Shown: positions 3,234-63,589, numbered from the stretch's first letter. The stretch: 64,000 nt of DNA from a virus (IMGVR_UViG_3300031413_000005:32001-96000); one strand, 5' to 3'. Program-made: numbers and translations. The notes: generated by a model from the sequence alone, not told the origin.

Positions 3234-3263
3234 CGCTCCTGACGTGTGCGTGTGTGTTGTTGA

Positions 3264-3722
3264 CTATGCAATATCGCGCACCTTGCGCTTGCGCAAGGGC
3301 GGCGTGAGATGCCGGTGATGGAAACGACCGTAGGGCAAGATCCTGATCGCTCGACCGCGGTAATTGGCGCGGGTGCGGGTAAGGTTCGGATCGAAGAACT
3401 CGGCGATCGGCACGACCGAAAGGCGGGCGAGCTCCTCCACGACGATCGCGACGACTTTGCACTCTGCCTTGATCGCGCGCTGGAGCACGACGTTGTCGAC
3501 GCCGAGTCCTGCGGTGCCCATCTGAAGCGCCTCGTCGATGCTCTTTGCACCACCGCGCCAGATGTCTTTGCCCTTGGTCTCGATGATAAGCATCTTCACG
3601 CCGGGATCTTCGAGGTCGAGCGGATTGAGCTTGGTGATGACCTTGCCCTTCACGCCCGGCGCCGCGACGATCTCAGCTTCCCGTCGAGCCGCTTTCAGCA
3701 GGGGACGGAGCAGCTTGTTCAT
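3264..3722 (-). CDS. Hypothetical phage protein
   Basis: Fills the operon gap (start MNKLLRP); its stop codon lies inside a 24-bp element. Confidence 0.6.
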   Translation of the reverse strand: MNKLLRPLLKAARREAEIVAAPGVKGKVITKLNPLDLEDPGVKMLIIETKGKDIWRGGAKSIDEALQMGTAGLGVDNVVLQRAIKAECKVVAIVVEELARLSVVPIAEFFDPNLTRTRANYRGRAIRILPYGRFHHRHLTPPLRKRKVRDIA

Positions 3723-4227
3723 GCTCGCGGAGAAGGTAGATGGCCGTGAGCTTGGACTGCGGGTTGATGATGCGCGGGCCATAGTTTCTCCGAAGCCAGG
3801 TGGCGAGTTCGCGGGCAGCGTCTGCGATCAGCGTGCCCAGCATGAGGTGATTGGCGTGCGCATGGTCGCGAAGAATGCGGCCGATGCCACCACCGTCGAC
3901 GTGAATGACGCGGGAGTATCCGAAGACGGTCTCGGTCTTGGTGTTGTAGAGGCCGACCCGGTCACCGACGCGCAAGCGATCGACCCATGCCGACCCCACG
4001 CGGAAGGTGTTCGCGAGATGGGACAGGCCCGTCTCGTCCTGGAACGACAAAGCCGGCACCGTGACATTGCACGAGGCCGGCTGCTGCGCGAACGCGGCGC
4101 AACTCGATTGGAGGGCACAATACTCGCATGGCGAGTGCTGCGATCCGGCCGACCACGAGAGGTCAGGCATGCGACGCAGTGGTCGCGTGTTCGTGTTGAT
4201 ACCGGTCAAGATTGGTTCTGCGATCAT
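3673..4227 (-). CDS. Cys-cluster plus possible ASCH/PUA-like domain protein
   Basis: PCEYCALQSSC cluster followed by NTFRVG...LRVGDRVGLYN, which resembles the ASCH pattern. Confidence 0.5.
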   Translation of the reverse strand: MIAEPILTGINTNTRPLRRMPDLSWSAGSQHSPCEYCALQSSCAAFAQQPASCNVTVPALSFQDETGLSHLANTFRVGSAWVDRLRVGDRVGLYNTKTETVFGYSRVIHVDGGGIGRILRDHAHANHLMLGTLIADAARELATWLRRNYGPRIINPQSKLTAIYLLREHEQAAPSPAESGSTGS

Positions 4228-4237
4228 GTGACGCTTT

Positions 4238-4283
4238 TACCGTCGAGCGAGCACCGAAGCTCTTGGCGCTTTGCTCGACGGTA
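4238..4283. other. Intergenic inverted repeat (hairpin)
   Basis: 11-bp perfect arms taccgtcgagc / gctcgacggta. Confidence 0.6.
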
Positions 4284-4290
4284 TCGGCTT

Positions 4291-4632
4291 TTACAGGTTG
4301 ATCTTGTTCGCGGCGACGACCGCCTTGAGAGGTGCGACCGTGTCAGGCGCGTACCGCTCGGCGTAAGCGACCATCCCGCGTATGGCCTGGAGAGCTACGC
4401 GACGACGATCGACCTCCTCGGTGATGACGTCCTGTAATTCCTGAACGCGGGCGACGAGGCGGGTACGCTCGCTGTTGCTGAACACCGCGACGCGCGCGGC
4501 GACGCTGTCAGCGAACTCATCGACCATGAAGTCCTCACCGACGCCCAGCTCGATCAGGCATGCGGCCACGGTTTCCCGCGCCTTCTTGGAAGGACGCGGG
4601 TTGCGCAGGCGGTAGAGCAGCTTGGCGATCAT
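4291..4632 (-). CDS. Hypothetical protein
   Basis: 113 aa; ATGA overlap with the recA stop. Confidence 0.65.
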   Translation of the reverse strand: MIAKLLYRLRNPRPSKKARETVAACLIELGVGEDFMVDEFADSVAARVAVFSNSERTRLVARVQELQDVITEEVDRRRVALQAIRGMVAYAERYAPDTVAPLKAVVAANKINL

Positions 4633-5732: not shown

Positions 5733-6700
5733 GCGGTTACCTCTTGGGTCTGGGTGAATGGTTTCATCCACGCCTCTGCGTCGCGAAGGATCGAGCTGAA
5801 GGAGAGCTCGGCACAGAAGTTGCGGAAGGCCGGCACGTCGACATCGCAGCGGGTTGCGCGAATGTTGATCGGTGCGGGGATTGAGGGATGGGAGAGATCC
5901 ATCAGCTCGAGCGCGAACTCGAACCGCTGTTTGACTTCGGGATCGTCACGGAGGTTTTGGTATTTGGTCGGCAGCAGGGTCGGTTGACCCTTCTTCGCCT
6001 TCGGGCAGGTCTGGCCGGCAGCTACCCAGCGCGCGACCGCTTCTTCCTGCGTGATGCGCTGGAGCTCGTGGACGTCGTCGAAGACGGACAAGAGCAATTC
6101 TGCCCCATCACCACCAACACCCGTGCGCGGCTTGATGTTGTCGCCCGTGTCGCCCTGGAGGGCCTTGGAGTGGACGAACGCTCGCTGCGTCTTGTAGCCG
6201 GTGAAGCCCTTGAACGTCGCCGCGGTGCATTTCTTCGCAGCGCGGTGGTCGCTCCACACGACGCCCGGCTCGACCAGCTGGCACCAATCCTGATCGCCCG
6301 TTTCGAGCATGACCGAGTCACCGTTTGCCAGTGCTCGACGCGTCATGATCGCCGCGAGATCGTCGGCCTCCATGTTGCCGGCGATGATCTGCGGAACGCC
6401 AAGGTAATGCAGACCACGAACGATGAACTGCTTCTGCGCCTTGTATTTGGCGCGCTCGTTGATCTGCTCCTGGGTCTTCTGTCGCGTGCCCTTGTATTCG
6501 GGGTAGCGATCGTAGCGCCAGGACCGCCCGTCCCACAGCACGACCGGCTTGGTCATGGTGGACTCGAGCATCTTACGGATCGTACCCAGAGCGCCATAGA
6601 TCGCGGTGGTCTCCTGACCGCCCGCCACCAGTGGTTTGCCCTTGCGAGCCGACGCAGCGAAACCAACGCTGTTTCCGTCAATGTAAGTGCGCATCGTCAT
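5729..6700 (-). CDS. 5'-3' exonuclease / flap endonuclease (T4 RNase H-like)
   Basis: IDGNS, WDG, YPEYKGTR, EADD, GDQDWCQL, LQGDTGDNI motifs. Confidence 0.9.
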   Translation of the reverse strand: MTMRTYIDGNSVGFAASARKGKPLVAGGQETTAIYGALGTIRKMLESTMTKPVVLWDGRSWRYDRYPEYKGTRQKTQEQINERAKYKAQKQFIVRGLHYLGVPQIIAGNMEADDLAAIMTRRALANGDSVMLETGDQDWCQLVEPGVVWSDHRAAKKCTAATFKGFTGYKTQRAFVHSKALQGDTGDNIKPRTGVGGDGAELLLSVFDDVHELQRITQEEAVARWVAAGQTCPKAKKGQPTLLPTKYQNLRDDPEVKQRFEFALELMDLSHPSIPAPINIRATRCDVDVPAFRNFCAELSFSSILRDAEAWMKPFTQTQEVTA

Positions 6701-6722
6701 GTGTGTCGTCTACCATGCACGA

Positions 6723-8474: not shown

Positions 8475-8518
8475 GATCCTTTTCCTTCAGTGCGTCCCTT
8501 CGACTGCATGTGTGTCGT

Positions 8519-11500
8519 CTACCATGCACTTGCGGGATTGCAAGCGTCATTATCGACCAATTTCGCAGCGTCCCTAAAAAGATTGGTGAGCGTCTCCCGC
8601 TTTGCCTCGTCGTGGTAGATCTGGGTCGGGTTGAAACCGATGATGACGGTCGCATCCATCTCGGACGAGTAGGACATCTTGCCGCAATGCTCGGCCATGC
8701 CGCCCTTCAGGTCGGGGAAGAACGCGCGCGTGGCGTTGGCACCCAGCGTGATGATGACCGGTGGCTTCAGGATCTCGATCTCGCGCTTCAGGAACGGCTG
8801 CGCGGCCATGACCTCGTCGCGCGGGACTTCCTTCTCGCCCTTGCGCTTCGGCCGGCGTGCGCACCACGTCCAGTAGGCGTGCTCGACATGCAGCCCGCTC
8901 TCGACGAGCGACGGGCGAATGAACTGCTCGAAGCTGAAGGTCTGAGGCAGGGTCTGGTAATCGTTCAGCGGGTGATCGAGCACCACCATGATGCGCGGGT
9001 CGTTCCCGGCGTAGCCCTCCATCGCTGCGCTCCCCAGCGCTGCCTTCATCTCGGTGATGAGGCGATCGAGGGCATCGGCCGTCAGATCGTCCTGGGGGAT
9101 GACGCGCTCGGCTGACACGCCCTGGTCCATCACGCCGGGCATGAGTGCGATCTGGTCGCGCTTGCGGCACTCGTCGGTTGCGGCCGGCTGGCCGGGCTCG
9201 ATGCGCGAGAACGCGCCAACCTTGTCGAGGTTCTCCATGCCGCGGCTGGTCAGGAGCTTGCCTGGGATGCGGTTGCGCACGTCCTCCATCGAGACGAAGC
9301 GGCCCGGCCCCCACTGGTGCTTGAACACCTCGCGCGCTTTACCGCGCTTACCGTTGCTGCTCTCGGTGAAGACCGGTTCCGTCGTCGTGCGAGCTTCTAT
9401 GATCGCAGCCGCACCATTCGCAGATACGTGCATGACCGACGACAGCGGTGCGCACAGCACGGTGTCGTTGAGCGGCTCGAAGCGTGCCGTCGACACGTTG
9501 ATGTCAGGCGGGATCACCGTGATGCCGTCTTCCTTCGCCTGCTTGATGAGGCCGGGGAGCTTGTCAGGATGCACGACCGTCATTGCCGCGGCGTAGAACT
9601 CGATCTTGTAATTGGCCTTCAGATACGCGGCCTGGTACGAGATCAGCGTGTATTCGACCGCGTGGCTGCGGTTGAAAGCGTAGCCCGCGAACTTCTCAAT
9701 GCCGTCGAACAGCGCACCGGCTGGTATCGCGTCCATGCCTGCGACCTTGAAGGCGCCATCGACGAACTTGTCGCGCTGCTCGGCCATCATGTCCGCGTCC
9801 TTTTTGCCCATCGCCTTGCGGAGGACGTCTGCCTCGCCCGGCGTGAAGCCGCACAGCGCGCGCGCCACGAGCATCACCTGCTCCTGGTAGGTGACGACGC
9901 CGAAGGTCGTGTTGAGGACTGGCTCGACCAGCGGATTCACATAGCTGACGGCACGATTGCCGGCGCGACGCTCGATGTATTCCTCGCACAGACCTGCATC
10001 GAGAGGCCCTGGGCGGTTGAGCGCGTTGAGCGCCACAAGATCTTCAAACGAGAGAGGACCGCCGCGTGCCATCTGCTTGAGCAGACGACGCACGCTGGCG
10101 CCCTCGAACTGGAAGATACCGCTGGTGCGTGCGGAGGTGAAAACGTCGAGCGTCTTTTCATCGTAGAGGTCCAGGCTGTTGAGGTCGATCGTGACGCCGT
10201 GCCGCTGCTTGATGAGGCGCAGCGCGTAATCGAAGACGTCGAGCGTCGAGAGGCCGAGCACGTCGAGTTTCACGAGGCCCTGATCCTCGGACACGCGCTT
10301 GTCCCAGTTGATGACGCGACCACCGTTGCGGCGTTCGAGCACGGCGCGCTCCTCCAGATCCACGCCCGCGACGACGACGCCGGCTGCGTGCTGACCGAAG
10401 GTGCGCATCTTGCCTTCGAGCGCGACGGCATGGCTCCAGGCCAGCGGTTCGGCTTCAGCGAATGCGGCAACCTCGGGCGCGGCCTCGCGGCTGTCTTCGA
10501 GGCTCATGGCTTCACCGTGAACATCGCCGACAAACTTGGTGACGCCCGCCTGATCGCCCTTGTCATGGATGCGCAGCACGGAGCGAAGCGCGTCCTTCGC
10601 GCCCATCGAGTTGTAGTTGACGATGCCCGCCACGCGCGCGGCGCCATACTTGCCGGTGAGATACTCGACGACCTCGCCACGGCGCGAGGACATGAAGTCG
10701 AGATCGGCGTCGGGAAGATCGAGGCGGTCGGGGTTGATGAAGCGCTCGAACAGCAGGTTGAAGCGGATCGGGTCAACGTCGGTGATGCCCATCAGGTACG
10801 CGACGAGGCTACCGCCCACCGAACCGCGGCCTGGGCCGACGAGGATGCCTTGCGCCTTCGACCACCGCACGAGGTCGGACACGAGCAGGAAGTATTGCGA
10901 GAAGCCCAGCGTCTTGAGAACGCCCAGCTCGAACTTGAGGCGCGGCAGGTAATCGCTTGCGAGCTCGGCCGGGGTTGGCTGGTGACCGAACACGGGCGCG
11001 GTGAAGCGCTCGCTCCAGCCCCGCTTGCACGCGTCGGTCAGCGCCTGGTCGCAATCGACCTCGACGATCGGCAGTGAGGGGTCTTGCTTCGACCACCGGT
11101 AGGCGCACAAGCTCACGAGGCGCTCGGTATTGCGCAAGCCTGTCTGGAACAGCGGCTTTGCCTGGGTGCCGTAGCGCTGCTCGATCTGGAGCGCGGTCTC
11201 GACGGACTTGCTGACCAGCGCGGGGAGGGTGAGGGGCACGAACTCGGACGCCGGCCGCAGATAGTCGAAGTACGGGCGGTTCTCGGCGATCGAGGCGTTG
11301 ATCGAGTAGACCAGCTCGTTGCCTTCGAGCCAGAACATCGGCTGGATCACGATCGGCTCGGCCTTGGCAGCGGTGCCCCACTTGATCGCGCGGTTGTTGA
11401 TGCGCGTGAAATACGGTGTCGGTGACGGGATGAGCTCGTAAAAGACCGCTGCGAACTGGCAGCTGGTGACAAGCTTGGTGAGACCTGCTGCGCTTTCCTT

Positions 11501-11923: not shown

Positions 11924-12459
11924 GCGAGCTCCAGATGGGGGCCGCGAAAGCGTGCGCGGCCGGCAGAAATGAGAAGTGAAACCTCGCGCGTCGCGGTTCG
12001 TGCGGCGCTGCTGTAGGTCAGGTTTGAGCGCTCTTGCAGAGCGTCGGCTATCTCTTTGCGTGTCGATGGTGCTTCACCGATCAGCGAGACGATGGTGCGC
12101 ATGTGCTTCGACAAGCCGCCCAGTTCATCGGCAGAGCAGGTGCGCGGATCGACTTTGGTGCGAGCCGCGCGCGCGAGCGTCGCGGTGTTGCGCACATCGC
12201 CCACCTCGAGAGCCATCGTGACCAGGCCGTCGTCGAGCTGTGCCTGCTTGGCCTTCTTGCGCTCGGTCTTGGTGAGCCATGCGTAGCTCATCTCGCGACC
12301 AGTTGTGCCGTCGGTGAAGCGATCCAGCAGCGCGAGAACGCGCGGCCTGATCTCGTTCACGCGAGCTTGGCATTCGACATGCGCAGGGCACGCTTGGCAC
12401 ATTGGCTCTTTGTGGTCGTAGGAGATCATGGAGCCGAAGCATCCGGGGGCGGTGTGCAT
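11920..12459 (-). CDS. Cys-rich N-terminus plus C-terminal wHTH-like protein
   Basis: PGCFGS...CQACPAHVEC at the N-terminus; TRKEIADAL helix pattern at the C-terminus. Its ATG lies within a 24-bp element. Confidence 0.6.
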   Translation of the reverse strand: MHTAPGCFGSMISYDHKEPMCQACPAHVECQARVNEIRPRVLALLDRFTDGTTGREMSYAWLTKTERKKAKQAQLDDGLVTMALEVGDVRNTATLARAARTKVDPRTCSADELGGLSKHMRTIVSLIGEAPSTRKEIADALQERSNLTYSSAARTATREVSLLISAGRARFRGPHLELA

Positions 12460-12496
12460 GTGTGTCGTCTACCACAAGGGCCGGGAACGGAAAACC

Positions 12497-13840: not shown

Positions 13841-13938
13841 TCTGGTAACTCCTCGTGAACCGTCTTGCGCGGTGCATTCTCTCTAGCAGCGTTTTGAGCG
13901 CTTGTGCATGGGTGTTGTTGACCATGCACAAAGAGCCG

Positions 13939-16586: not shown

Positions 16587-16635
16587 CGTATTCTCCGCTG
16601 CATGTGTGTCGTTACCTATGCACGTCTTAGCAGAC

Positions 16636-16966: not shown

Positions 16967-17566
16967 TTAGAGGTCCATAATCGCTTGCTTGAGAGCCTTG
17001 CGCTGCACCATCGACAGCCCGTTCTTGTTGATCTCGGGACGCTCGCTCCGAATCATGTCGAGCACGCCCATTTCCGGGACGCTGGCCCAGCGCCGCACTG
17101 CATTCCGATCGGCCGCTGCCTCACGGACTACCGCGAACTGCTCAGCAGGCATGTCAGCGAGCGGAGCGCCGGATGCGGACTGGAGATCCTCGATCATCAG
17201 AGTTTCCTCGTCAACCCGGCCAGAGCGCGTCTTGGGGTCGCCTGCTGCCTTAGACAGCATGCGCCCGAAAGGTATCTGGGGGAAACGCTGTTCGAGCACG
17301 GCGAGCAGAAACTCGGGCGCATCGAGACGCAGCGTGCGAACGAAGTCCATTGCCCGCTCGACAGGGATTGGTGCTCGTCCGCTTGCCATGTGGCTAATGA
17401 CCACCGACGACTTGTAGCCGAGCATGCCAGCTACGGTGCGCTGGCTAGTCCCGCTCTCTCGCTCGATGCGGTCGAGCCCAGCCGCGAACATACGGCAAGC
17501 CCGCGTGTTTGCGAGAGGGTAAGAACCCTCGTCTCGTTGTTCTGCCTTCAGCACTTTCGCTACCAT
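16967..17566 (-). CDS. XRE-type HTH transcriptional regulator, candidate phage repressor
   Basis: SQRTVAGMLGYKSSVVISHMASGRAPIP HTH pattern; AAGGAG RBS; beside the replicon; a 24-bp element variant lies upstream. Confidence 0.75.
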   Translation of the reverse strand: MVAKVLKAEQRDEGSYPLANTRACRMFAAGLDRIERESGTSQRTVAGMLGYKSSVVISHMASGRAPIPVERAMDFVRTLRLDAPEFLLAVLEQRFPQIPFGRMLSKAAGDPKTRSGRVDEETLMIEDLQSASGAPLADMPAEQFAVVREAAADRNAVRRWASVPEMGVLDMIRSERPEINKNGLSMVQRKALKQAIMDL

Positions 17567-17964
17567 GATCGTTACGTCGCTCCTTTTCTTCTTCTTGTTG
17601 TGTTGTACGCTATGCACCTGCTTGTTAGCTAATCAACACACACCGCGCAAGACGGCTCACATGACAAATGGTTCAGTTTATCGATAAGCCAATCGACAAA
17701 TCGACCACAAAAACCAGAACGTATAGAGAACAACACACACTGGTATCGCAGGAATGCGATAGTTTACCGTTCTTCCCGAACGGCAAGTCCATGGTGATGA
17801 ATTTCTGTGATCGAGATAATCGTCTGCTTCCCCAGCGAGGCGCGTGGAGCCCCGTAGGGGTGGAGCGCAGCGCGCCTCGCCCGTTAGAGAGAATCTGTTA
17901 TTGATTCTGTTAAGTAAGTTAAGGTCAAAATCGGCTTGCAAAATCAGTCACTTACAAGGGTTTC

Positions 17965-18096
17965 TGTAAGCGATAGACGAGTCAATGGAAGCGATAGACG
18001 AGCCGAATGCAAGCGATAGACGAGTCGATATGCAAGCGAAAGACGAGTCGATCTGGCAAATGTAAGCGATAGACGAGTCGATGTAAGCGAAACGCG
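17965..18096 (+). repeat. Iteron array downstream of repA
   Basis: Copies of TGYAAGCGATAGACGAGTC at 17965, 17986, 18008, 18031 and 18061, plus a partial copy at 18082; AT-rich tract at about 17885-17960. Confidence 0.9.
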
Positions 18097-18098
18097 TC

Positions 18099-19181
18099 TC
18101 ACTGCGGCTCGGAGGCTCCCTTTTTGGCAACCAGCGACTTCACGAGGTCAGGGAATGAGGCAAAATCGGCCGCGGTGACCGGATCGTCGATATGCTCAGG
18201 CGCAAAACGCGGTTCGACTCGTCTTTCGCTTACATTCGGGGCCGTCTCGACTCGTGTATCGCTTGCAATCTGAGCCGTGCGACGGGTGACTCGTCTATCG
18301 CTTGCGTTGGCTCGACGATGGAAGACAACCTTGAGTGCCTTCAGCCCGCGGACCAGCTTAGCATCGACCAGCGCGGTGTCGCTCTTGTCGCCAGCAAGGG
18401 ACAGTGAGATCTGATACTCTGGCAGGTCATTTGCCTGAACGATGTCCAGCACCACCTGCTTGAAGTAGCGAGTGTTCTTATCCTCGTACCCGATCTTTTC
18501 CGCCAAACGCAGCAGGTTGATCGACCAGGTAGGTTGAGTGCCGCAGTGTTTGCGCGCCAGCTCGTAGACCCGACGAGCGATCCCCGAGGTAAGCTTGAAA
18601 TAACCGGCGTCGATTGAGAGGATCGTTCTGTCTTCGACGATCTGGCGCCAAAGCCAGTCCTCCATCTCGACCTCGACCATGCCGGTCACTTTGCGGCCGT
18701 TAGGCAGCTCGCGTTCTGTCAGTTTCCCCGACTTGATCCACGAGAAGAATCCTTTTTCGTTGGTCGATGCGCCGGTCTTGATGTTGGTTCGGATCGTGGT
18801 CGACTGGAGCCGGTCGAGCGCAGCTTCGAGATCCTGATAAGCTCGACCTCCCGTGGACCGGCCGCAGCTGACGAAGAAGTCGTGGGCGTGGAAGCGAACG
18901 CGCTGGGAAACGGGCACTCCCTCATTCATGCAGCGGTTAATGTGGCTCGCGACGAAGATCAGGAGATCCTTGTCCCAGATCGTAGCGAGTCCCTCGGGTC
19001 CAGGCCGCACCTCGAACCTGACTTTACCGTCGTCGTAGATCCGCTTCTCCATCACCTTCGTCTTGGAGATTGAGAAAAAGGGGAACTCCATCAGGTTCGT
19101 GATGTCTCGGAAGCTGACGCGATCCTGGCGATCCAGAAAGAGGTCAGGCGTTTCAACGATCTGGTTCACGGGCGCTCCCAA
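18099..19181 (-). CDS. repA: Plasmid replication initiator RepA (RPA family)
   Basis: LMEFPFFSISK, GLATIWDKDLLIF, ALDRLQSTTIRTNI, YFKLTSGIARRVYELARKHCG; flanked by iterons. Confidence 0.9.
   Translation of the reverse strand: MGAPVNQIVETPDLFLDRQDRVSFRDITNLMEFPFFSISKTKVMEKRIYDDGKVRFEVRPGPEGLATIWDKDLLIFVASHINRCMNEGVPVSQRVRFHAHDFFVSCGRSTGGRAYQDLEAALDRLQSTTIRTNIKTGASTNEKGFFSWIKSGKLTERELPNGRKVTGMVEVEMEDWLWRQIVEDRTILSIDAGYFKLTSGIARRVYELARKHCGTQPTWSINLLRLAEKIGYEDKNTRYFKQVVLDIVQANDLPEYQISLSLAGDKSDTALVDAKLVRGLKALKVVFHRRANASDRRVTRRTAQIASDTRVETAPNVSERRVEPRFAPEHIDDPVTAADFASFPDLVKSLVAKKGASEPQ
18217..18306 (-). repeat. Three inverted iterons inside the repA 3' end
   Basis: gactcgtctttcgcttaca (18217), gactcgtgtatcgcttgca (18249), gactcgtctatcgcttgcg (18288). 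Confidence 0.85.
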
Positions 19182-19275
19182 TGCAAGCGATAGACGAGCG
19201 GGCCTAGCGCGAATGCAAGGGATAGACGAGCCCTAAATGCAAGCGATAGACGAATCTTTGCAAGGGATAGACGAC
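19182..19275 (+). repeat. Iteron array upstream of repA
   Basis: TGCAAGSGATAGACGA at 19182, 19214, 19238 and 19259. Confidence 0.9.
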
Positions 19276-19330
19276 TGAGGTCCGGGTTCGATAAGAGAGA
19301 TTATGTGAAATTGATCTATGGACTGGCCGA

Positions 19331-20892: not shown

Positions 20893-21053
20893 GCGTGCGC
20901 CACCCGGTAGCCCTCACCTGGCGGCGAGCAGCATGGGCATGGCTCGATCGACATATCATAATGCGACCCGATCACCCCGCGACCGCCGCAACGGATGCAG
21001 TGTCCGAACACCAGCGAGACGAGCTGAATTAGTGCATGTGTTACGTTCACCAT
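20889..21053 (-). CDS. 54-aa zinc-finger protein (not in ORF track)
   Basis: Own translation MVNVTHALIQLVSLVFGHCIRCGGRGVIGSHYDMSIEPCPCCSPPGEGYRVAHA; AAGGAG RBS; abuts the dnaB stop and overlaps the primase start (GTGA). Confidence 0.65.
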   Translation of the reverse strand: MVNVTHALIQLVSLVFGHCIRCGGRGVIGSHYDMSIEPCPCCSPPGEGYRVAHA

Positions 21054-22391: not shown

Positions 22392-22443
22392 TGCCCCTGC
22401 ATGTGTGTTGTTGACTATGCACTAGCGCCCAAGGTTGGGGCGG

Positions 22444-31568: not shown

Positions 31569-31575
31569 GGCGCGG

Positions 31576-45794: not shown

Positions 45795-45833
45795 GTTGAG
45801 ACCTGCATGTGTGGTGGACACCACACACACGGA

Positions 45834-46751: not shown

Positions 46752-46848
46752 CTCGTTCTCCTAATCGGTTTTCTTTATTTCTGACACCATCCTACATCAG
46801 GGTGCATGTGTTGTAAATACCACACACTACCCTGATGTAAAAATGTCA

Positions 46849-47595: not shown

Positions 47596-47686
47596 GAAAC
47601 ACCTTTACTTGAAACTATGTAGGTGTGGCTATTGTGCCACACCTACCCCGAGTTTGCAACGCGCATGTGTGTTACAGACCATGCGG

Positions 47687-53458: not shown

Positions 53459-53494
53459 ATCATACCAGATTGCATGTGTGTTGCCTACCATGCA
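53459..53494 (-). promoter_or_regulatory. Element plus extended -10 promoter for the portal gene
   Basis: Element-ATCTGG-TATGAT-8 nt-ATG. Confidence 0.7.
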
Positions 53495-55324: not shown

Positions 55325-55621
55325 CTCTAGTCGTCTTTTATCGGGAGTGTCAAGCGGTGCATGTGTGTAGTCTACCATGCACCTCGATTTTTTGGAAGCC
55401 AGCGCGCTTCGCGCTGATCGCCGCGGGATTTTCGGTCTCGTGCGCGTGCTCGCGTATGCGCGCTAGGCGTGTGCGCTCGCGTGCGCGCGCGTTAGAGATT
55501 CTCCGATTGCGCTGGATTCGAGCTTGATCTCGAAACTCCCGCGCTCCGGTATATTACTTACTACGTAGTAATATGGGAACGAGGTTCTTTTTTGTTCTTT
55601 TAGACAGAATGTCTTACCTAT

Positions 55622-55909: not shown

Positions 55910-56820
55910 GGCATCACCAGCGGCATGTTCGGGGCCTGTGCGTCGAAGCACCGCAGCGGCAGGATTGCCGGCAGCGGAGCGGCCTGGACGGGGTTCTGGT
56001 AAACCCCGTAGAGCGGGCTCGCTAGGGTCATCTGCTGGAGGTTGTGAAGCACGTCGCGCATGGGCATTGCGGCCACGCGGCGCTCACCCACACCACCCAG
56101 CGATTTGCCGGTCTTCTCCATCGATGAGTTCTTGTAATAGAACGATTTTGTTTGCTCCTCGATCGCCTTACGCTCGGCGATCGGCAGGCTCATAAATTCC
56201 TCCACGAGCGCCTCCAGATCGGCCGGATCGCTGGTGAACGTCGAGCGGAAAAACCGCATGCCCAGGTCGTATTTGTTCGAGCGCATCGGCTTGACGAACG
56301 TGAAGCCGGCGCGGTGCGCGAACAGGTTGTATTTCGACATCGACGACTGGATCTCGATGTAGCGTTTGCCCTCCATCCGAGCGGCCAGATTGGTGAACCG
56401 GTAGGCAAGCCCGGCGCCGCGGTACATCGTGTCGATGACGACGCGCGCCACGACCGACATATTCGCGTTGATCCACTTCATCCGGTATTGGTTCGTCAGC
56501 TTGTTGTCCTCGCCGGTGGGCTTCAGCTTCGGGAAGGCGACGTGCCGCTCCTTCAGCAGAAGCTTCGGGCTTGCCATCACCAGCACACCGACCAGCTCGT
56601 CGCCGAGCTTGAGCGTGAAGTGGTGCGAGCCGGCCGGGAGCGATCCTGCCTGCTTGTAGTGGAGGGCCTCGAGCGTGCGCCAGTCCTCGATCGTGCCGCG
56701 CTGGACGGTCATGTCGTCGAGCAGCGACAGCTTCGGCGTGGCGAGCGAACGCACGACGTCCCAGTGAACTTCCGGGTTGCGCTCCAAGATTCGCGGTTCT
56801 ATGTGTGTGTTATCCACCAT
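55906..56820 (-). CDS. GNAT (Mom-like) acetyltransferase
   Basis: LHYK, VARVVIDTMYRGAGLA acetyl-CoA motif, SMSKYN.F..AGF. Confidence 0.8.
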   Translation of the reverse strand: MVDNTHIEPRILERNPEVHWDVVRSLATPKLSLLDDMTVQRGTIEDWRTLEALHYKQAGSLPAGSHHFTLKLGDELVGVLVMASPKLLLKERHVAFPKLKPTGEDNKLTNQYRMKWINANMSVVARVVIDTMYRGAGLAYRFTNLAARMEGKRYIEIQSSMSKYNLFAHRAGFTFVKPMRSNKYDLGMRFFRSTFTSDPADLEALVEEFMSLPIAERKAIEEQTKSFYYKNSSMEKTGKSLGGVGERRVAAMPMRDVLHNLQQMTLASPLYGVYQNPVQAAPLPAILPLRCFDAQAPNMPLVMP

Positions 56821-57457
56821 GCACCCGATTGATAGAGATACGCTCGTGAAACCTTTTCGTGATGCTCAAGGAAGGCGACAGCTCCTCGATCAGATCCGAG
56901 TGCGTGGTGGCGACGATCAGGGTCTTGCCGTAGGCACGCGCGGCCTTGGCGAGATTCCAAGCCACAATTCTCGCCGTGACGCGATCGAGTACCGCCCCAA
57001 ACTCGTCCGCGACCCAGACGTCGGCATCGCTTTCGATCAGCTTCGCAAGACGGTATCGGTACTTCTGTCCATCCGAGAGCTCACCGGGCTTTCGAATGTA
57101 GAGGTAAGCGTCGGAAAGACCGGCGATGGAAAGCAAGCGGATAGCGTCGGCCATGCTCTCGGGTGCGAGCTGATCTATGATCGCCTTTTCATCGGAGAAC
57201 TCGATAGCGTCGAGATTGGCGACCTTCTGACCCGTGCGCTCCAGCGCGGCGCTCGTCTCACGGAGAAGCACCGACTTGCCGGCGCCCGACTGTCCGTTGA
57301 TGTAGACGACGTCACCCGGCTCAAGGTCAAATTCTACGTTGTCGAGGACCGTGAAGTCCCGGTCTTCCAGCCCAAGCCCAAAGGCTTCGGCCACCTTGAT
57401 GACTCGCTCGCTGCGCGCGGTGCGGGTGGTGAACGACCGATTTAGGGTGATCTTCAT
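56810..57457 (-). CDS. Soluble ABC-type ATPase
   Basis: GQSGAGKS, LSDGQKYR, ADEF, ATTH; no permease nearby. Confidence 0.88.
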   Translation of the reverse strand: MKITLNRSFTTRTARSERVIKVAEAFGLGLEDRDFTVLDNVEFDLEPGDVVYINGQSGAGKSVLLRETSAALERTGQKVANLDAIEFSDEKAIIDQLAPESMADAIRLLSIAGLSDAYLYIRKPGELSDGQKYRYRLAKLIESDADVWVADEFGAVLDRVTARIVAWNLAKAARAYGKTLIVATTHSDLIEELSPSLSITKRFHERISINRVHGG

Positions 57458-57876: not shown

Positions 57877-58552
57877 TGAGCCACTCCGTGAAGGCTTCAG
57901 CGCCCTTCTTGCCGGTCGCGCCCTCAACCTCGGCCACGAAGCGCTTGAACAGCACCACCTGCGCGACCGGCACGCCGCGGAACCCGAACACCTTCGAGAT
58001 CGGCTGCATGGCGGTGTCCACGGCCGCGACCTTGTCGGCGGTTTCCGCATCCTGGGCGTCGAGCTCGGCGTCGAGATCCTCGGCCAGTCCGCCAAGATCC
58101 ATCGCGCCCAGATCCTCGGTCAGGAAGGCGAGTTCGCGATCGTCGAGGCCAAGGCTCCCCAGATCGACATCGTCGACCATCGAGAGGCGAGCGATTTCCT
58201 CGGCCATGAAGCCGCTGTCGTAATCGGTGCCCTGCGTCTTGTTGTCGGCGATGCGCGCGGCGTCGGCCTGGTTCTTCGTCAAATGCTTGGCGTGACGCAC
58301 CGGGAACTCGACGTGGCCCATCTCGAGCAGGCACGCGTAGCGCTTGTGACCGGCGATCAGAACCCCGTCGACATCGACGATCAGCGTGTTGATGAGACCG
58401 AACTCGCGGATCGACGCGATCGTCTTGTCCTTGTCGGTGCGGCTGTGGATCTTGTTGTTCTTCGCATACGGCGAGATGCGATCAGCCGTCCACATCTCGA
58501 CGGGGAGACGCTGAAGGCCATAGGGGTCATGCGTGTGTGTGTTGTCTGCCAT
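57863..58552 (-). CDS. ParB/Srx N-terminal domain protein
   Basis: PYAKNNKIH, SIREFG, LIAGHKRY, RIADNK. Confidence 0.85.
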   Translation of the reverse strand: MADNTHTHDPYGLQRLPVEMWTADRISPYAKNNKIHSRTDKDKTIASIREFGLINTLIVDVDGVLIAGHKRYACLLEMGHVEFPVRHAKHLTKNQADAARIADNKTQGTDYDSGFMAEEIARLSMVDDVDLGSLGLDDRELAFLTEDLGAMDLGGLAEDLDAELDAQDAETADKVAAVDTAMQPISKVFGFRGVPVAQVVLFKRFVAEVEGATGKKGAEAFTEWLNARP

Positions 58553-58558
58553 GCGCTC

Positions 58559-58720: not shown

Positions 58721-59405
58721 TGGGGTCGTCCTTGGTGAGAATGTGCATCAAGGCGTCGCCAGCGTTTGTCAGATCGTCGGCATGGCTGAAGCCTTGTGCT
58801 TTCATGACCCCGCCCACGATGGCGCGCGCTCGCGCGGCATCTTGGATCGAAACCTTGAAACGGAGAATGTCGTGGGTCTTCGGCTCCTTCGTGGGAGCCT
58901 GGTCGAGCGTGTCGAGGTCACCGGGCGCGATCGGGTCGTCGTCCAGATCCAGATCGGCCACGTTGACCGACAGGGAGGCGGTGAAGCCCTCCATCTCGCC
59001 GGCCGACCACGGCATGACCATCGCCAGATCGATGTCCTTCAGCGAGCCGAGCAGCTCACCCAGCTTCAGCACGTCGTCGTGACCGTAGCGCGCATTGTCG
59101 AGCAGGCTGATTTCCTGCGCTCGCGCGTCGGGGATGATCCCAAGGTTGATGACGGGGACGGTGTCGAAGTCCAGGTCGCAGGCTTGCTCGACGCGGTGCC
59201 AGCCGCCTAGCGACTGATATTCCCCAGCGGGAAGACCGGCGACCTCGCGCACGACGACCGGGCGGAAGAAGCCGTGCCGCTTGAGCGACTCCTGGATCTT
59301 CAGCTCGTTTTCGTGGCTCACGACGTTCGTGTTCCACGGGTTGGGATGGATGAGACGGGGGTCGACCGCCAGGTGCTCATATTGCGCTGCGGGTGTGTGG
59401 TGCAT
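58704..59405 (-). CDS. ParB/Srx N-terminal domain protein
   Basis: PNPWNTN, SLKRHGF..PVVVR, GGWHR, LDNARYG. Confidence 0.85.
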   Translation of the reverse strand: MHHTPAAQYEHLAVDPRLIHPNPWNTNVVSHENELKIQESLKRHGFFRPVVVREVAGLPAGEYQSLGGWHRVEQACDLDFDTVPVINLGIIPDARAQEISLLDNARYGHDDVLKLGELLGSLKDIDLAMVMPWSAGEMEGFTASLSVNVADLDLDDDPIAPGDLDTLDQAPTKEPKTHDILRFKVSIQDAARARAIVGGVMKAQGFSHADDLTNAGDALMHILTKDDPNATPA

Positions 59406-59496
59406 GCCACACATGATAACCCAAAAACGCCGGCAGATCCACGTCTCTTTACTCAAAGGAGCTATACACAACGCATGGTAGACGACACGCATGCAG

Positions 59497-59525
59497 TTGC
59501 CAAACTACACTCAAACCGGTATGAT
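59497..59525 (+). promoter_or_regulatory. Sigma70-type promoter for the rightward operon
   Basis: TTGCCA-17 bp-TATGAT, immediately after the 24-bp element at 59472; ATG 7 nt downstream. Confidence 0.7.
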
Positions 59526-59532
59526 ATTTCGA

Positions 59533-61993: not shown

Positions 61994-62629
61994 ATGCAGA
62001 TCATTGCCTGTATCAGTCAGAAGGGCGGCGTCGGTAAATCCGTCATCACCCGCCTTCTCGCGCGCGAACTCGCCGCGGCTGACTTCGTCGTAAAGATCGC
62101 TGACCTCGATGTGCAGCAGGCGACGTCGACCCGCTGGATCGGAACCCGGCTCGAGAACGGACACAAGCCCGACATCTCCGGCGCCTTCTACAAGACCGTG
62201 GGCGAAGCTCTGCGCGACGCGGGCGAGACCGAGATCATGATCTTCGACGGCAAGCCCGTCGCTGACCAGCAGGCCACCGAGGTTGCGAAGAAGGCCGACC
62301 TGATCGTCCTCCCTTCCGGCGCGAGCGTCGATGACCTCCGGCCGACCGTCCAGCTGATGCACGCGCTGCTGGGCGCTGGCGTGCCGGCCAAGCGCATGAT
62401 CGTCGTTCTGGTGTCGTCCATGACCCCGGCAACCGAGGCCGACGCTCGCGCGGTCCTCGAGAACGCGGGCATTCGCGTCGCTGCGCGTGCGCTGCGCAAG
62501 CTTCCCAGCTACGAGGTCGCGCTCGGCCAGGGGCAGTCCCCTTCCGAAGCCCGCGGGCGTGCTGACGTCCGCAAGGAGGCGGCAGACGTCGCCGAGGAAA
62601 TCTACAAAGCGCTTCAGGAGACCGAGTGA
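61994..62629 (+). CDS. parA: ParA family partition ATPase (short, type Ib-like)
   Basis: SQKGGVGKS, DLDVQ, ADLIVLP. Confidence 0.9.
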   Translation: MQIIACISQKGGVGKSVITRLLARELAAADFVVKIADLDVQQATSTRWIGTRLENGHKPDISGAFYKTVGEALRDAGETEIMIFDGKPVADQQATEVAKKADLIVLPSGASVDDLRPTVQLMHALLGAGVPAKRMIVVLVSSMTPATEADARAVLENAGIRVAARALRKLPSYEVALGQGQSPSEARGRADVRKEAADVAEEIYKALQETE

Positions 62630-62862
62630 TGCCGATCGAGAAACCCGTGCGCAAGCCGCGCATCGACCTTGGCGACATCACGCCGCCCGCGGCGCTGTCG
62701 AGCGCGACCGACCCGAAGGAATATTACAGCGTCCGCATCCCCGCCTCGCTCATGAAAGCGATCCGGCAGGCGCAGGCCCGCGAGGGGCACAACCAGGGCT
62801 ACAAGCATTTCACCGAGATCATGACCGAGTATCTCAGGAATAAGCACCCCGACCTGCTCTGA
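62626..62862 (+). CDS. Small partition partner (ParG-like RHH)
   Basis: 78 aa after parA; flexible N-terminus then YSVRIP strand and helices. Confidence 0.6.
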   Translation: MMPIEKPVRKPRIDLGDITPPAALSSATDPKEYYSVRIPASLMKAIRQAQAREGHNQGYKHFTEIMTEYLRNKHPDLL

Positions 62863-62867
62863 ACAAC

Positions 62868-62895
62868 GGGCGCGCGAGATTGCACTTGCGCGCCC
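62868..62895 (+). terminator. Hairpin after the par operon
   Basis: gggcgcgcgag / cttgcgcgccc; U-tract is weak. Confidence 0.5.
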
Positions 62896-62930
62896 AATAT
62901 CTCATCGCTAGTGCATAGTGAATGACACAC

Positions 62931-63215
62931 ATGCACCACGAGGCGGCTATCGAATTAGAGCGCGATTACCCGCCCGTCATCGACGCGTTCGTTCTCCATG
63001 ACGAGGGCGCAGCGCACTCGGCCTTCCTCGTTGGAGCCCTCGCGAACGTCGACGAGACGCTGCTCGCAGATGGTTATGACCAGATGCGCTTGGGCCAGGC
63101 GCATGCAAGCCGCTCGCTCGACCTGATCCGGCTCTGCGATCGCCCGACAGCACGCTACCTGATGCTGATGAACGCGAAGCTGTGGCTCGACCAAGCGAAG
63201 TCGTTAGGCGAATGA
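62931..63215 (+). CDS. Hypothetical protein
   Basis: Start codon lies within the 24-bp element at 62912. Confidence 0.55.
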   Translation: MHHEAAIELERDYPPVIDAFVLHDEGAAHSAFLVGALANVDETLLADGYDQMRLGQAHASRSLDLIRLCDRPTARYLMLMNAKLWLDQAKSLGE

Positions 63216-63589
63216 GCCCGCGTCTCAAGGCTTTGAAGGCCAAGGCAACCAAGCGCTTTATCGCTTTCGTGATGATCCACTGCTCCACCCTGCGGGTCAG
63301 CTACAGCACGCTGATCGCCGAGCGCAACGCCCTTCGCAGGGACCTTGATGCACTAGAAGCGCGTCACACGCCGCTGATGGATGCAGCCTCGCGCTTCAAC
63401 CGCATGCTCGACAACACGCACACACAGCGGCCCGGGTCGATCCAGTTGGTGATCGCCGACGAGCCCCTCGCACTCGCCTTCAAGACCAAGCTGAACAACC
63501 TCGTCCTCGCAGTCGAGGGGAAGCCGCTCACTGATGACCCTTTCTTCGACCTGCCGGTGTCGGCCGGTCCCAGCCGCAGGATGCACTGA
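63212..63589 (+). CDS. Hypothetical protein
   Basis: ATGA overlap at the start (MSPRLK); contains an internal element-like sequence at 63401. Confidence 0.55.
   Translation: MSPRLKALKAKATKRFIAFVMIHCSTLRVSYSTLIAERNALRRDLDALEARHTPLMDAASRFNRMLDNTHTQRPGSIQLVIADEPLALAFKTKLNNLVLAVEGKPLTDDPFFDLPVSAGPSRRMH

What the first reader, a model, noticed from the sequence alone, without database searches (positions are those of the whole stretch)
3247..63424. Genome-wide, transcription-oriented 24-bp element at about 26 sites: a candidate single-regulator control system covering early and late genes
Seen: the mRNA-strand consensus is TGCATGGTAGACGACACACATGCA, with inverted TGCATG/CATGCA arms and an asymmetric core in which ACAC is strongly conserved. 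Perfect copies lie at 8505 and 24040; the rest are listed in the repeat feature. All 24 copies left of 59.4 kb follow the minus-strand genes, and orientation flips where transcription flips (59472, 62912, 63401). Copies precede replication and recombination genes (sbcD, exonuclease, ssb, AAA, CobT-N, dnaB, phoH) and also terS, portal, scaffold, capsid, tail tube, tail tip, fibre and lysis genes. Position relative to sigma70-like boxes varies: over the -10 region (8505 and 24040: TTGCAW-16 bp-TAGACG), over the -35 region (31588, 35639, 42469, 53471), or just upstream of -35 (55358 TTGACA; 59472 TTGCCA). Several copies directly follow terminator hairpins (6696, 12455, 16599, 24040, 62912). Known analogy: P1 C1 operators are dispersed, asymmetric and oriented, but P1 late genes use a separate activator. 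Inference: one repressor directly silences nearly every transcription unit, giving a flat regulon rather than a cascade. Alternative: an RNA hairpin (6-bp stem, 12-nt loop; compensatory CGCATG/CATGCG at 47662) bound or cut at the RNA level.
Basis: partly seen in the sequence, partly recalled or inferred. Interest (0 to 1): 0.88.

Follow-up and report, generated by a model that had tools for sequence, protein, structure and literature searches.

The report
Genome-wide oriented operator-like motif in phage-plasmid
A 24-25-bp one-directional DNA signal sits in front of genes about 45 times in an uncultured Sphingomonas-type phage-plasmid and in all its known relatives, and is most likely the docking site of the element's own lambda-repressor-like protein, which would keep nearly the whole virus silent: a known kind of control in a new, unusually multiplied form.

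Summary
The window is 64 kb of a 109-kb SSU5-like phage-plasmid from a phyllosphere metagenome. It carries 27 motif loci, and the whole genome about 45. The logo is gTGCATRGTarAyrACACACAygca, about 31 bits. Sites are intergenic and co-oriented with genes.

- **Conservation:** twelve related elements carry the same motif family at 0.4-0.6 sites per kb. 24 sites are at orthologous positions in a relative with ~72% nucleotide identity.
- **Not a host repeat:** in a Sphingomonas MAG with a related element, all hits lie on two contigs, 22 on the element's contig C8 and 3 on C126, whose identity I did not check.
- **No hairpin:** the arms do not covary, so the RNA-hairpin alternative fails.
- **No phage polymerase:** no phage RNA polymerase or sigma factor was found.
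- **Promoter registers:** the motif overlaps sigma70-like promoters in at least two registers. Inverted copies overlap three further promoters, including that of the 199-aa HTH gene (16967-17566).
- **Candidate binder:** that protein has a lambda-cI-type fold, is predicted to dimerise, and defines the clade.

Best reading: a dispersed operator built around a promoter hexamer. Binding and repression are inferred, not shown. The scan earlier noted palindromic counterparts in enterobacterial SSU5-like plasmids. I class it as a new variant of a known kind.

The parts
3247..3270 (-). motif copy upstream of SbcD-like gene. The upstream gene's stop codon TAG lies inside the motif.
   Evidence: orthologous copy in G002
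6696..6719 (-). motif copy 4 nt after a hairpin, upstream of the exonuclease gene
8505..8528 (-). perfect copy in class A register: TTGCAA-N16-TAGACG, so the motif covers -10 and +1. The DnaE stop codon lies inside the motif.
12455..12478 (-). copy 24 nt after a strong intrinsic terminator. The arrangement is conserved in G002 and G003.
13905..13928 (-). copy upstream of the CobS-like AAA+ gene
16599..16622 (-). copy upstream of the CobT N-terminal-half gene. A copy at this place, just downstream of the HTH gene, was seen in most related loci that include it.
16967..17566 (-). 199-aa XRE/lambda-cI-type HTH protein, the candidate motif-binding regulator
17593..17650 (-). promoter region of the HTH gene: TTGCGC-N17-TAACAA, with an inverted motif core (17635-17642) in the spacer and a degenerate forward motif (17593-17616) at about +1
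17720..17743 (+). weak motif copy, inverted relative to the HTH gene
21033..21056 (-). weak copy between the DnaB and primase genes
22398..22421 (-). copy between a stop codon and the DnaB start (9 nt)
24040..24063 (-). perfect copy, class A (TTGCAT-N16-TAGACG), 51 nt after a terminator and upstream of PhoH
24746..24769 (-). copy upstream of the endolysin gene, class A
25768..25791 (-). copy upstream of lysis-region gene 25228-25728
31566..31611 (-). class B cassette: the motif hexamer TAGATA acts as -35, then N17, then TGG-TATTAT as -10. An ATG follows 7 nt later (leaderless type), starting the 1431-aa fibre gene.
35639..35662 (-). class B copy upstream of the NlpC/P60 tail gene
41354..41377 (-). 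weak copy in the tail-chaperone/tape-measure region, conserved in G002
42469..42492 (-). class B copy upstream of gene 41877-42404 (major tail tube by position and an earlier scan note; not run through a family search here)
45804..45831 (.). palindromic variant TGTGTGG-N-CCACACA just before the terminator after the capsid gene. G002 has TGCGTGG...CCACGCA at this place.
46803..46830 (.). palindromic variant upstream of the capsid gene, identical in G002
47662..47685 (-). copy upstream of gene 46849-47595 (scaffold by position only; no family hit reported)
53471..53494 (-). class B copy upstream of the portal gene
55358..55381 (-). copy ending 4 nt upstream of TTGACA-N17-CTAGAG, before the small-terminase-like gene
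56800..56823 (-). copy at a gene junction. The ATG of the left box is the predicted start of the 304-aa ABC-type ATPase.
58532..58555 (-). copy at a gene junction before the second ParB-like gene
59390..59417 (.). weak palindromic variant near the start of the first ParB-like gene
59472..59525 (+). divergent control region. The motif (59472-59495) is followed by rightward TTGCCA-N17-TATGAT, with a leaderless-type helicase start. The leftward TTGGCA-N17-TACCAT (59503 to 59475) takes its -10 from the reverse complement of motif positions 4-9.
62912..62935 (+). copy after a hairpin downstream of the ParA operon
63401..63424 (+). lower-scoring copy inside or at the end of a called ORF
17960..19330 (-). 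repA (18099-19169, Pfam RPA) flanked on both sides by CGTCTATCGCTTGCA-type iterons. No motif copy here, so this is a plasmid-maintenance unit outside the regulon.

Best explanation
The motif is a DNA-level protein-binding site: a dispersed operator of a regulator encoded by the element itself.

Its architecture is a roughly 20-bp imperfect palindrome. The left half-site is TGYRTGG. The right half-site is RACACACA, which reads TGTGTGT on the other strand. The two halves flank a central hexamer, T-A-G-A-C-A, that host RNA polymerase can use as a -10-like box (with an upstream TTG) or as a -35-like box (with a downstream TAnnnT).

The best candidate binder is the 199-aa lambda-cI-type HTH protein at 16967-17566, acting as a dimer held together by its C-terminal domain.

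In the plasmid-prophage state it would occupy about 45 sites. That would shut promoters of replication, structural and lysis genes alike, and possibly block read-through at sites with no promoter, as stoperators do. repA and its iterons, and the regulator's own promoter, lie outside or under separate control.

Shown: the sites, their orientation, their conservation, their registers on promoter-like boxes, the protein's fold, and its co-occurrence with the motif.

Inferred: binding, the identity of the binder, the sign of regulation, and roadblocking.
For: 1. **Real and selected.** There were 0 chance matches in shuffles. 24 of about 31 mappable sites lie at orthologous intergenic positions in G002, where the flanks have diverged. 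The motif family is present at 0.4-0.6 sites per kb in all 12 related elements examined.

2. **Element-specific.** In a 3.7-Mb Sphingomonas MAG, all 25 hits lie on two contigs: 22 on the 119-kb contig that carries the related element and 3 on contig C126, which I assume but did not check is part of the same element; none elsewhere. The reversed control pattern gave 0. A scan of 185,579 species genomes found only that MAG.

3. **DNA-level, not a fixed promoter part.** The motif occupies two different, individually enriched registers relative to -35 and -10 boxes. Inverted copies overlap sigma70-like promoters of the HTH gene in most of the relatives examined, the leftward early promoter, and the ligase gene.

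4. **No phage polymerase.** Pfam and PHROGs scans covered about 150 of the 159 called ORFs, skipping only those under 50 aa and a few mid-sized structural ones. They found no phage RNA polymerase and no sigma factor.

5. **The candidate.** It is the only phage-repressor-type HTH found. Its fold matches lambda cI, P22 c2 and 434 N-domains (Foldseek TM 0.65-0.68; VIA Z 7-8). The recognition helix is nearly invariant across 27 homologues. All 11 loci fetched by homology to it carry the motif. The only orphan RACACACA core in the genome lies in its promoter. The gene is bracketed by its own promoter and terminator.

6. **Homodimer model.** ipSAE was 0.75 against a best control of 0.16. That mark was reached by 20 of 30 proteins solved as pairs of one chain and by 1 of 23 proteins solved as single chains. 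The runs share at least 81% of contacts and pLDDT is at least 80. The model supports dimerisation but does not show it.

7. **Enterobacterial counterpart.** SSU5-like plasmids encode a 28-32% identical homologue of the HTH N-domain. One of them carries a dispersed 20-bp palindrome at about 14 sites, one directly upstream of that homologue.

8. **Maintenance gene outside the regulon.** repA is iteron-controlled and has no motif.
Against: - No binding or expression data exist.
- A symmetric dimer does not by itself explain why the left half-site is so consistently TGCAT rather than TGTGT, nor why orientation follows transcription so strictly. This needs the added assumption that the embedded promoter hexamer, or coding and punctuation constraints, fix the orientation.
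- 56% of sites show neither a -35 TTG nor a downstream -10.
- After two or three strong terminators the motif is the only conserved block before the next gene. This fits a promoter reading at least as well.
- The central hexamer never has T at its last position, so its use as a -10 box is uncertain.
- ParA lies downstream of a motif-associated promoter.
- HTH identity between relatives is only 45-53% although the motif is nearly the same.
Confidence: 0.6

Rival explanations
1. The motif is itself a phage-specific core promoter. Host RNA polymerase would start transcription near motif position 20 at every copy, either alone through the TGG-TAGACA extended -10-like part or with an unrecognised phage specificity factor. 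That would give one promoter per gene or small operon.
For: - Orientation strictly follows transcription, and sites lie just upstream of genes with 9-75 nt to the start codon.
- The motif follows terminators in a conserved way, with no other conserved block before the next gene.
- Canonical sigma70 promoters are not enriched in the first 20 kb (2 found against 3.7 expected).
- TTG is enriched at -35 distance from positions 8-13.
- The length and contiguous conservation resemble T7-type promoters.
Against: - No phage RNA polymerase or sigma factor was found.
- The most conserved positions, TGCAT and ACACACA, lie outside any sigma70 recognition element.
- The presumed -10 box never ends in T.
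- 23 sites carry a proper TAnnnT -10 box about 6 nt downstream of the motif. That places the motif at -35 in a second register, conserved in G002.
- Inverted copies sit on promoters that fire the other way: the HTH gene, leftward P_L and the ligase gene. As promoters these would drive only antisense transcription.
Confidence: 0.2
2. The motif is an activator-binding site. A phage-encoded activator, possibly the same HTH protein, would recruit host polymerase to otherwise weak promoters, as T4 MotA or P1 Lpa do.
For: - In class B sites and at 55358 and 59472, the motif lies over or just upstream of -35, where activators can act.
- Many motif-associated promoters lack a good -35 box.
Against: - In class A sites the motif covers -10 and +1, where a bound protein would exclude polymerase.
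- The variable register is atypical for activators.
- An activator gene with its binding sites on its own -10/+1 region fits autorepression better.
Confidence: 0.1
3. The motif acts as RNA: a hairpin or linear element bound or cut upstream of each gene, serving processing or translational control.
For: - Orientation is strictly on the mRNA strand and sites are close to ribosome-binding sites.
- The consensus of this lineage has 6-nt inverted arms.
Against: - Arm pairing is 0.669 against 0.665 in shuffles, and 260 of 1000 shuffles reach the observed value.
- Only 26 of 187 sites are fully paired, and A-C mismatches are frequent with no compensating changes.
- The right arm is absent in G003 and in other relatives.
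- Orthologous pairs change one arm only.
- In class A and B sites, the local promoter leaves all or most of the motif untranscribed.
- Distance to the start codon varies from about 9 to 75 nt.
Confidence: 0.04
4. The motif marks strand-specific nicks or another DNA-transaction site (packaging, replication, recombination). Nick-associated motifs of this kind are known in phages T5, tf/Rembedalsseter and phiKMV.
For: - Strand-specific dispersed motifs linked to nicks exist in other phages (PMC11780129).
- Two ParB-like nuclease-domain genes lie next to the terminase genes.
- Motif orientation flips at one point in the genome.
Against: - The sites are tied to gene starts and to promoter boxes in defined registers, which nick motifs need not be.
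- No HNH or nickase family was found.
- Copies are present on the regulator's own promoter.
Confidence: 0.05

Closest known systems
Operators and stoperators of cluster A mycobacteriophages (L5 gp71, TipsytheTRex repressor; PMC9283540)
   Same: - More than 20 dispersed copies of one asymmetric site, at promoters and in short intergenic gaps.
- Orientation strikingly correlated with transcription.
- No phage RNA polymerase.
- A repressor of about 180-200 aa with an N-terminal HTH.
- Early and late genes both covered.
   Different: - The site is 24-25 bp and an imperfect palindrome, not 13 bp.
- The candidate protein is predicted to dimerise through its C-terminal domain. It is not a monomer with a second DNA-binding ('stoperator') domain.
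- No sequence relationship.
- The host is a Gram-negative alphaproteobacterium and the element is a plasmid-prophage.
- The site embeds a promoter hexamer used in two registers.
- Blocking of elongation is untested.
Dispersed 20-22-bp palindromic sites of enterobacterial SSU5-like phage-plasmids
   Same: - Same phage-plasmid supercommunity: DnaE, CobST, SbcCD and genome size.
- Homologous HTH N-domain (28-32% identity), with a site directly upstream of that gene.
- Sites of about 20 bp scattered over the lytic genes.
   Different: - There the site is a perfect palindrome, about 14-25 copies, with no orientation.
- The protein there is about 126 aa, without the 80-aa C-terminal domain.
- Here the site is asymmetric, oriented, about 45 copies, with a different sequence.
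Phage P1 C1 repressor and its dispersed asymmetric operators (own knowledge)
   Same: - A phage-plasmid.
- One repressor and many dispersed asymmetric operators controlling separate operons.
   Different: - The P1 operator is 17 bp, bound by a 283-aa monomer that is unrelated in sequence by my knowledge. This was not tested here.
- P1 late genes use a separate activator (Lpa). Here structural and lysis genes carry the same motif.
Lambda cI / P22 c2 / 434 repressors (XRE-type HTH)
   Same: - Fold of the N-terminal domain.
- Predicted dimer through the C-terminal part.
- Operator overlapping -35 or -10, with sites on its own promoter.
   Different: - No S24 peptidase domain.
- About 45 operators instead of 6.
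- The sites are asymmetric and oriented.

Membership tests
Cluster A mycobacteriophage operator/stoperator system | more than 20 dispersed copies of one site across the genome | tested here: met
   about 45 sites in 109 kb; 0.4-0.6 sites per kb in 10 related sequences
Cluster A mycobacteriophage operator/stoperator system | asymmetric site whose orientation follows the direction of transcription | tested here: met
   38 of 43 sites on the strand of the nearest gene, P=2.5e-7; the same holds in relatives
Cluster A mycobacteriophage operator/stoperator system | sites both at promoters and in short intergenic gaps within operons | tested here: met
   52 of 119 sites have promoter boxes in register and 67 have none. 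This rests on sequence only.
Cluster A mycobacteriophage operator/stoperator system | monomeric repressor with an HTH plus a second (stoperator) DNA-binding domain; 13-bp site | tested here: not met
   The site is 24-25 bp. The candidate is predicted to be a homodimer through its C-terminal domain (ipSAE 0.75 against control 0.16). Foldseek and VIA matched the N-domain only.
Cluster A mycobacteriophage operator/stoperator system | bound repressor stops elongating polymerase in an orientation-dependent way | not testable with these tools
   needs reporter or in vitro transcription assays
XRE / lambda-cI-type phage repressors | five-helix HTH DNA-binding domain | tested here: met
   pLDDT 96-97 over residues 20-100; matches to lambda cI, P22 c2, 434, ImmR and DdrO; PF01381 in homologues
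XRE / lambda-cI-type phage repressors | S24 (LexA-like) autocleavage domain | tested here: not met
   Pfam found only a weak HTH_31 match. The C-terminal part is all-helical.
XRE / lambda-cI-type phage repressors | binds the operator and represses lytic promoters | not testable with these tools
   only indirect evidence: motif copies on its own promoter and co-occurrence with the motif
Phage RNA-polymerase (T7-type) promoters | phage-encoded RNA polymerase | tested here: not met
   no RNA-polymerase or sigma family among the ~150 of 159 called ORFs scanned (ORFs under 50 aa and a few mid-sized structural ones were not)
Phage RNA-polymerase (T7-type) promoters | single fixed register relative to the transcription start | tested here: inconclusive
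   Two registers relative to sigma70-like boxes, plus inverted copies on promoters, but transcription starts are not mapped.
Structured RNA element (hairpin) | base pairs maintained by covariation | tested here: not met
   paired fraction 0.669 against 0.665 shuffled; 26 of 187 sites fully paired; the right arm is lost in relatives
SSU5-supercommunity phage-plasmids | about 100-120-kb siphovirus genome with DnaE, CobS/CobT, SbcCD and recombinase, plus plasmid replication and partition genes | tested here: met
   RepA with iterons; ParA
Host repeat (REP-like) or host-factor site | comparable density in the host chromosome | tested here: not met
   In a Sphingomonas MAG, 22 of 25 hits are on the element's contig C8 and 3 on contig C126 (assumed part of the element, not checked); none on any other contig. 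Only that MAG matched among 185,579 species genomes. The true host of this record is not known.

The most novel reading that the evidence does not exclude
A clade of alphaproteobacterial (Sphingomonas-type) phage-plasmids has turned the ordinary palindromic operator of the SSU5-type repressor into an asymmetric, oriented, 45-copy 'promoter-in-operator' cassette. One dimeric cI-like protein would then directly switch essentially every transcription unit, early and late, with no cascade. It would also act as a roadblock at sites with no promoter. This would be a convergent, Gram-negative counterpart of the mycobacteriophage stoperator system, built on a different protein architecture.
Probability: 0.35. 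Interest if true: 0.75.

Novelty: new variant of a known kind. Interest (0 to 1): 0.6.

Why it matters
How SSU5-like phage-plasmids are kept silent is, as far as I could find, not described. This is a large group that includes clinically common enterobacterial plasmids.

This locus gives a concrete and testable handle:
- one candidate repressor family that is conserved across the group;
- its probable DNA target;
- a lineage in which that target has been multiplied, made asymmetric and fused to promoter elements.

If confirmed, genome-wide operator/stoperator silencing would not be a peculiarity of actinobacteriophages. The work would also yield a compact 25-bp regulated promoter cassette for alphaproteobacteria.

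Tried and rejected
- **RNA hairpin:** rejected.
- **Host repeat:** rejected, within the limits of a MAG and of species-representative genomes.
- **Phage RNA polymerase or sigma factor:** none found in Pfam or PHROGs.
- **sigma54, ECF, DnaA-box, IHF and RfaH-ops resemblances:** considered from memory and dropped because spacing or key bases do not fit.
- **Near-identical DNA in cultured phages:** none.
- **Close relatives of the HTH protein by single-sequence search of viral contigs:** none. The alignment-based search worked.
- **Sequence search of solved structures with the HTH protein:** nothing useful.
- **C-terminal domain folded alone:** pLDDT 56, too poor for a fold search. Its fold and role rest on the full-length model and the dimer model only.
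- **RNA evidence:** no RNA holder was listed among the sequencing runs.
- **Klebsiella relative:** the most over-represented strand-specific word proved to be clustered replication iterons, not a dispersed motif.
- **Nick-site idea:** raised by PMC11780129. It cannot be tested here. The paper on phage nickie was not held, and PMC8537276 says nothing about motifs.

Full report
**What the window is.** The window is bases 32001-96000 of a 109,429-bp IMG/VR virus record, estimated 98% complete, with 62% G+C. Family searches show a siphovirus with these genes:
- DnaE-type polymerase, SbcCD, UvsX-like recombinase, exonuclease, SSB, and CobS plus a split CobT;
- primase, DnaB, PhoH, ribonucleotide reductase and thymidylate synthase;
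- terminase, portal, capsid, tape measure and J-like tail tip;
- a plasmid RepA (Pfam RPA), a ParA and two ParB-like proteins.

Its DnaE is 35-41% identical to those of Rhizobium phage RHEph10, Pseudomonas phage nickie, Salmonella phage SSU5 and related phage-plasmids. repA is flanked on both sides by iterons. The element is therefore an SSU5-supercommunity phage-plasmid.

A related 119-kb contig (capsid 71% identical) lies in a Sphingomonas MAG. One homologue of the regulator is named from Sphingomonas elodea. The DNA is held by phyllosphere and leaf-litter metagenome runs. A sphingomonad host is therefore likely, though not shown.

**The observation.** The stated consensus matches 9 times at <=3 mismatches, against 0 in shuffles. 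An iterated position weight matrix finds 27 loci in the window and about 45 in the whole record.

A logo built from 75 sites of three genomes is 25 bp and about 31 bits: g-TGCAT-R-G-T-a-r-A-y-r-ACACACA-y-g-c-a. The flanks carry no information, apart from a weak TTG about 22 bp upstream of position 8.

Sites are intergenic (32 of 43, P=1e-19) and lie on the strand of the nearest gene (38 of 43, P=2.5e-7). Many are squeezed between a stop codon and the next ribosome-binding site. In several, the stop codon (TAG at positions 5-7 or 8-10) or a start codon lies inside the motif.

**Conservation.** G002 is an 80-kb IMG/VR contig, syntenic, with ~72% nucleotide and 50-88% protein identity. It has about 27 sites. 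24 of about 31 mappable sites are at orthologous positions, while the surrounding intergenic sequence has diverged.

The Sphingomonas MAG contig carries about 30-49 sites of a variant, TGCATGGTRACTGACACACACA. Eleven further viral contigs were retrieved only through homology to the HTH protein. All of them carry the family at 0.4-0.6 sites per kb, co-oriented with the genes.

The part conserved across the clade is ..RTG-N7/8-RACACRCA. The TGCAT left box and the CATGCA right arm are specific to lineages.

**Not a host repeat.** In the 3.7-Mb MAG, all 25 matches to its own consensus lie on two contigs: 22 on the element's contig C8 and 3 on contig C126, which I assume but did not check belongs to the element. 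There are none elsewhere. The reversed control pattern gave none. A degenerate pattern scanned over 185,579 species genomes hit only that MAG.

**Not an RNA hairpin.** Over 187 distinct sites, the six arm pairs form standard pairs in 66.9% of cells, against 66.5% after shuffling; 260 of 1000 shuffles reach the observed value. Only 26 sites pair fully. A4-C21 (75 sites) and A6-C19 (50 sites) are common and show no compensating change. Orthologous pairs often change one arm only, for example CATGCA to CACACA.

**Not a phage-polymerase promoter.** Pfam on 114 small proteins at once, and Pfam or PHROGs on the larger ones, together covering about 150 of the 159 called ORFs, found no RNA polymerase or sigma factor.

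**Relation to promoters.** Among 119 sites in ten sequences, two registers are each enriched about five-fold over shifted controls:
- 32 have TTG at 16-18 bp upstream of positions 8-13. Here the motif covers -10 and +1, as in TTGCAA-N16-TAGACG at 8505.
- 23 have TAnnnT 2-9 nt downstream of the motif. Here positions 8-13 act as a -35-like box, as in TAGATA-N17-TGG-TATTAT at 31588.

Both registers are conserved at orthologous sites in G002. Where the G002 -10 box lies 3 nt closer, the motif reads TGGCAA at positions 5-10 instead, which keeps a 17-bp spacer. Class B promoters are followed by an ATG 7-8 nt after the -10 box, so they are of the leaderless type.

Inverted copies overlap three sigma70-like promoters that fire the other way:
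- The HTH gene's own promoter. It is TTGCGC-N17-TAACAA with the inverted core in the spacer in this genome. It is TTGACW-N16-TAGTCA directly followed by the inverted core in G003, L032, L033 and L034.
- The leftward early promoter at 59503-59475, whose -10 box TACCAT is the reverse complement of motif positions 4-9. This is conserved in G002.
- The ligase promoter, outside the window.

A sequence that occupies several registers and both orientations on promoters behaves as a protein-binding site, not as a fixed part of the promoter.

On the other hand, 67 of 119 sites show no promoter boxes. After strong terminators the motif is the only conserved block before the next gene. E. coli-type promoters are not enriched in the first 20 kb. 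The promoter reading therefore remains a live rival, and the central hexamer very likely does serve polymerase.

**The candidate binder.** The 199-aa protein at 16967-17566 is the only phage-repressor-type HTH found.
- Its N-domain (pLDDT 96-97) matches lambda cI, P22 c2, 434, ImmR and DdrO.
- It has about 60 homologues, all from metagenomes or Sphingomonas. The segment SQR..A..LGYKSSV..SHM..GR.PIP is almost invariant.
- The gene has its own promoter and terminator and sits next to the plasmid origin.
- The only RACACACA core in the genome that lies outside a motif site is in its promoter.
- A homodimer model passes. ipSAE is 0.75 against a best control of 0.16. That mark was reached by 20 of 30 proteins solved as pairs of one chain and by 1 of 23 proteins solved as single chains. 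The runs agree in at least 81% of contacts and pLDDT is at least 80. The interface is formed by residues 120-199. This supports dimerisation through the C-terminal domain but does not show it.

A dimer fits the site if the site is read as an imperfect 20-bp palindrome. TGYRTGG (positions 1-7) would face TGTGTGT, the bottom strand of positions 14-20. Four sites in this genome are true palindromes of TGTGTGG...CCACACA. One of them changes both halves together in G002, to TGCGTGG...CCACGCA.

The dimer model does not explain why the left half is almost always TGCAT, nor why orientation is so strict. I attribute this to the embedded polymerase hexamer and to coding and punctuation constraints. That is inference.

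**Wider context.** The HTH N-domain has 28-32% identical counterparts in 575 enterobacterial plasmids of the SSU5 type, including Yersinia pestis pMT1-type plasmids. These are annotated as hypothetical.

In Klebsiella phage GArcari-2022b, that homologue is about 126 aa and lacks the C-terminal domain. A 20-bp palindrome, ATAGGTAAGTACTTACCTAT, occurs at about 14 dispersed sites, one directly upstream of the gene. Earlier notes of this scan reached the same reading on other SSU5-like plasmids.

The Sphingomonas-clade system thus looks like an asymmetric, oriented and multiplied derivative of a regulator-operator pair shared by the whole group.

**Comparison with known systems.** The system works most like the operator/stoperator system of cluster A mycobacteriophages. 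There, more than twenty 13-bp asymmetric sites are oriented with transcription, lie at promoters and in short intergenic gaps, and reversing a site abolishes repression (PMC9283540).

It is not a member of that family. The site is twice as long and pseudo-palindromic, the candidate protein is predicted to be a dimer rather than a two-domain monomer, and there is no sequence relationship.

It also differs from P1, where late genes need a separate activator (own knowledge). Here portal, capsid, tail and lysis genes carry the same motif.

**Verdict.** The operator reading is the best supported (about 0.6), with the HTH protein as probable binder (about 0.55 on its own). The 'flat regulon' is plausible but untested. 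I class the finding as a new variant of a known kind.

Noticed in passing
window 17960-18098 and 19175-19330: Two sets of CGTCTATCGCTTGCA-type iterons flank repA (Pfam RPA). They probably mark the plasmid origin and an autoregulated repA promoter. G002 has the same arrangement with a diverged iteron. The G003 relative lacks this RepA altogether.
   Followed up: partly
window 31566-31581, 35590-35620, 53450-53470, 59520-59545; L011 2040-2060: Several genes (fibre, NlpC/P60, portal, helicase, ligase) start 7-9 nt after a -10-like hexamer and have no Shine-Dalgarno sequence. They look like leaderless mRNAs. The arrangement is conserved in G002.
   Followed up: partly
L040-L042 (Klebsiella phage GArcari-2022b, CP101896.1): A 20-bp palindrome, ATAGGTAAGTACTTACCTAT, occurs at about 14 dispersed sites, one directly upstream of a 126-aa homologue of the HTH protein. 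A separate oriented ~25-bp word, AACAAnTTGTTTTCTTrTTGGTGTTATTAT, occurs at about 9 sites. The most repeated 15-mer belongs to clustered replication iterons.
   Followed up: partly
plasmid collection: The HTH N-domain has 28-32% identical, 'hypothetical' counterparts in 575 enterobacterial plasmids (Klebsiella, Enterobacter, Salmonella, Escherichia, Citrobacter), including Yersinia pestis pMT1-type plasmids.
   Followed up: no
window 55622-59492: A highly conserved block (75-88% identity to G002) of two ParB-like nuclease-domain genes, two ABC-type ATPase genes and two tiny ORFs lies between the early divergent promoters and the terminase genes. Its role is unknown.
   Followed up: no
window 13939-16586: The CobT-like protein is split into two adjacent ORFs. 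Both match phrog_1576, the N half at 15252-16586 and the C half at 13939-15249. My GC3-based gene caller mis-called the N half as plus-strand ORFs.
   Followed up: partly
window 45768-45831: The capsid gene is followed by a palindromic motif variant and then a strong intrinsic terminator (dG about -23). The next motif is 3.3 kb downstream, so the head-completion and tail genes behind it probably depend on read-through.
   Followed up: partly
window 47687-51822: A GH5 cellulase-family protein (418 aa) and a 960-aa protein with an Ig-like N-terminus and Calx-beta repeats sit between the portal and the putative scaffold gene. G002 lacks the first and most of the second.
   Followed up: no
whole record, several sites: The motif supplies coding punctuation. 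TAG at positions 5-7 or 8-10 ends upstream genes (for example DnaE at 8519-8521). ATG at positions 4-6 or 20-22 is the predicted start of some downstream genes (56820, 58552).
   Followed up: partly
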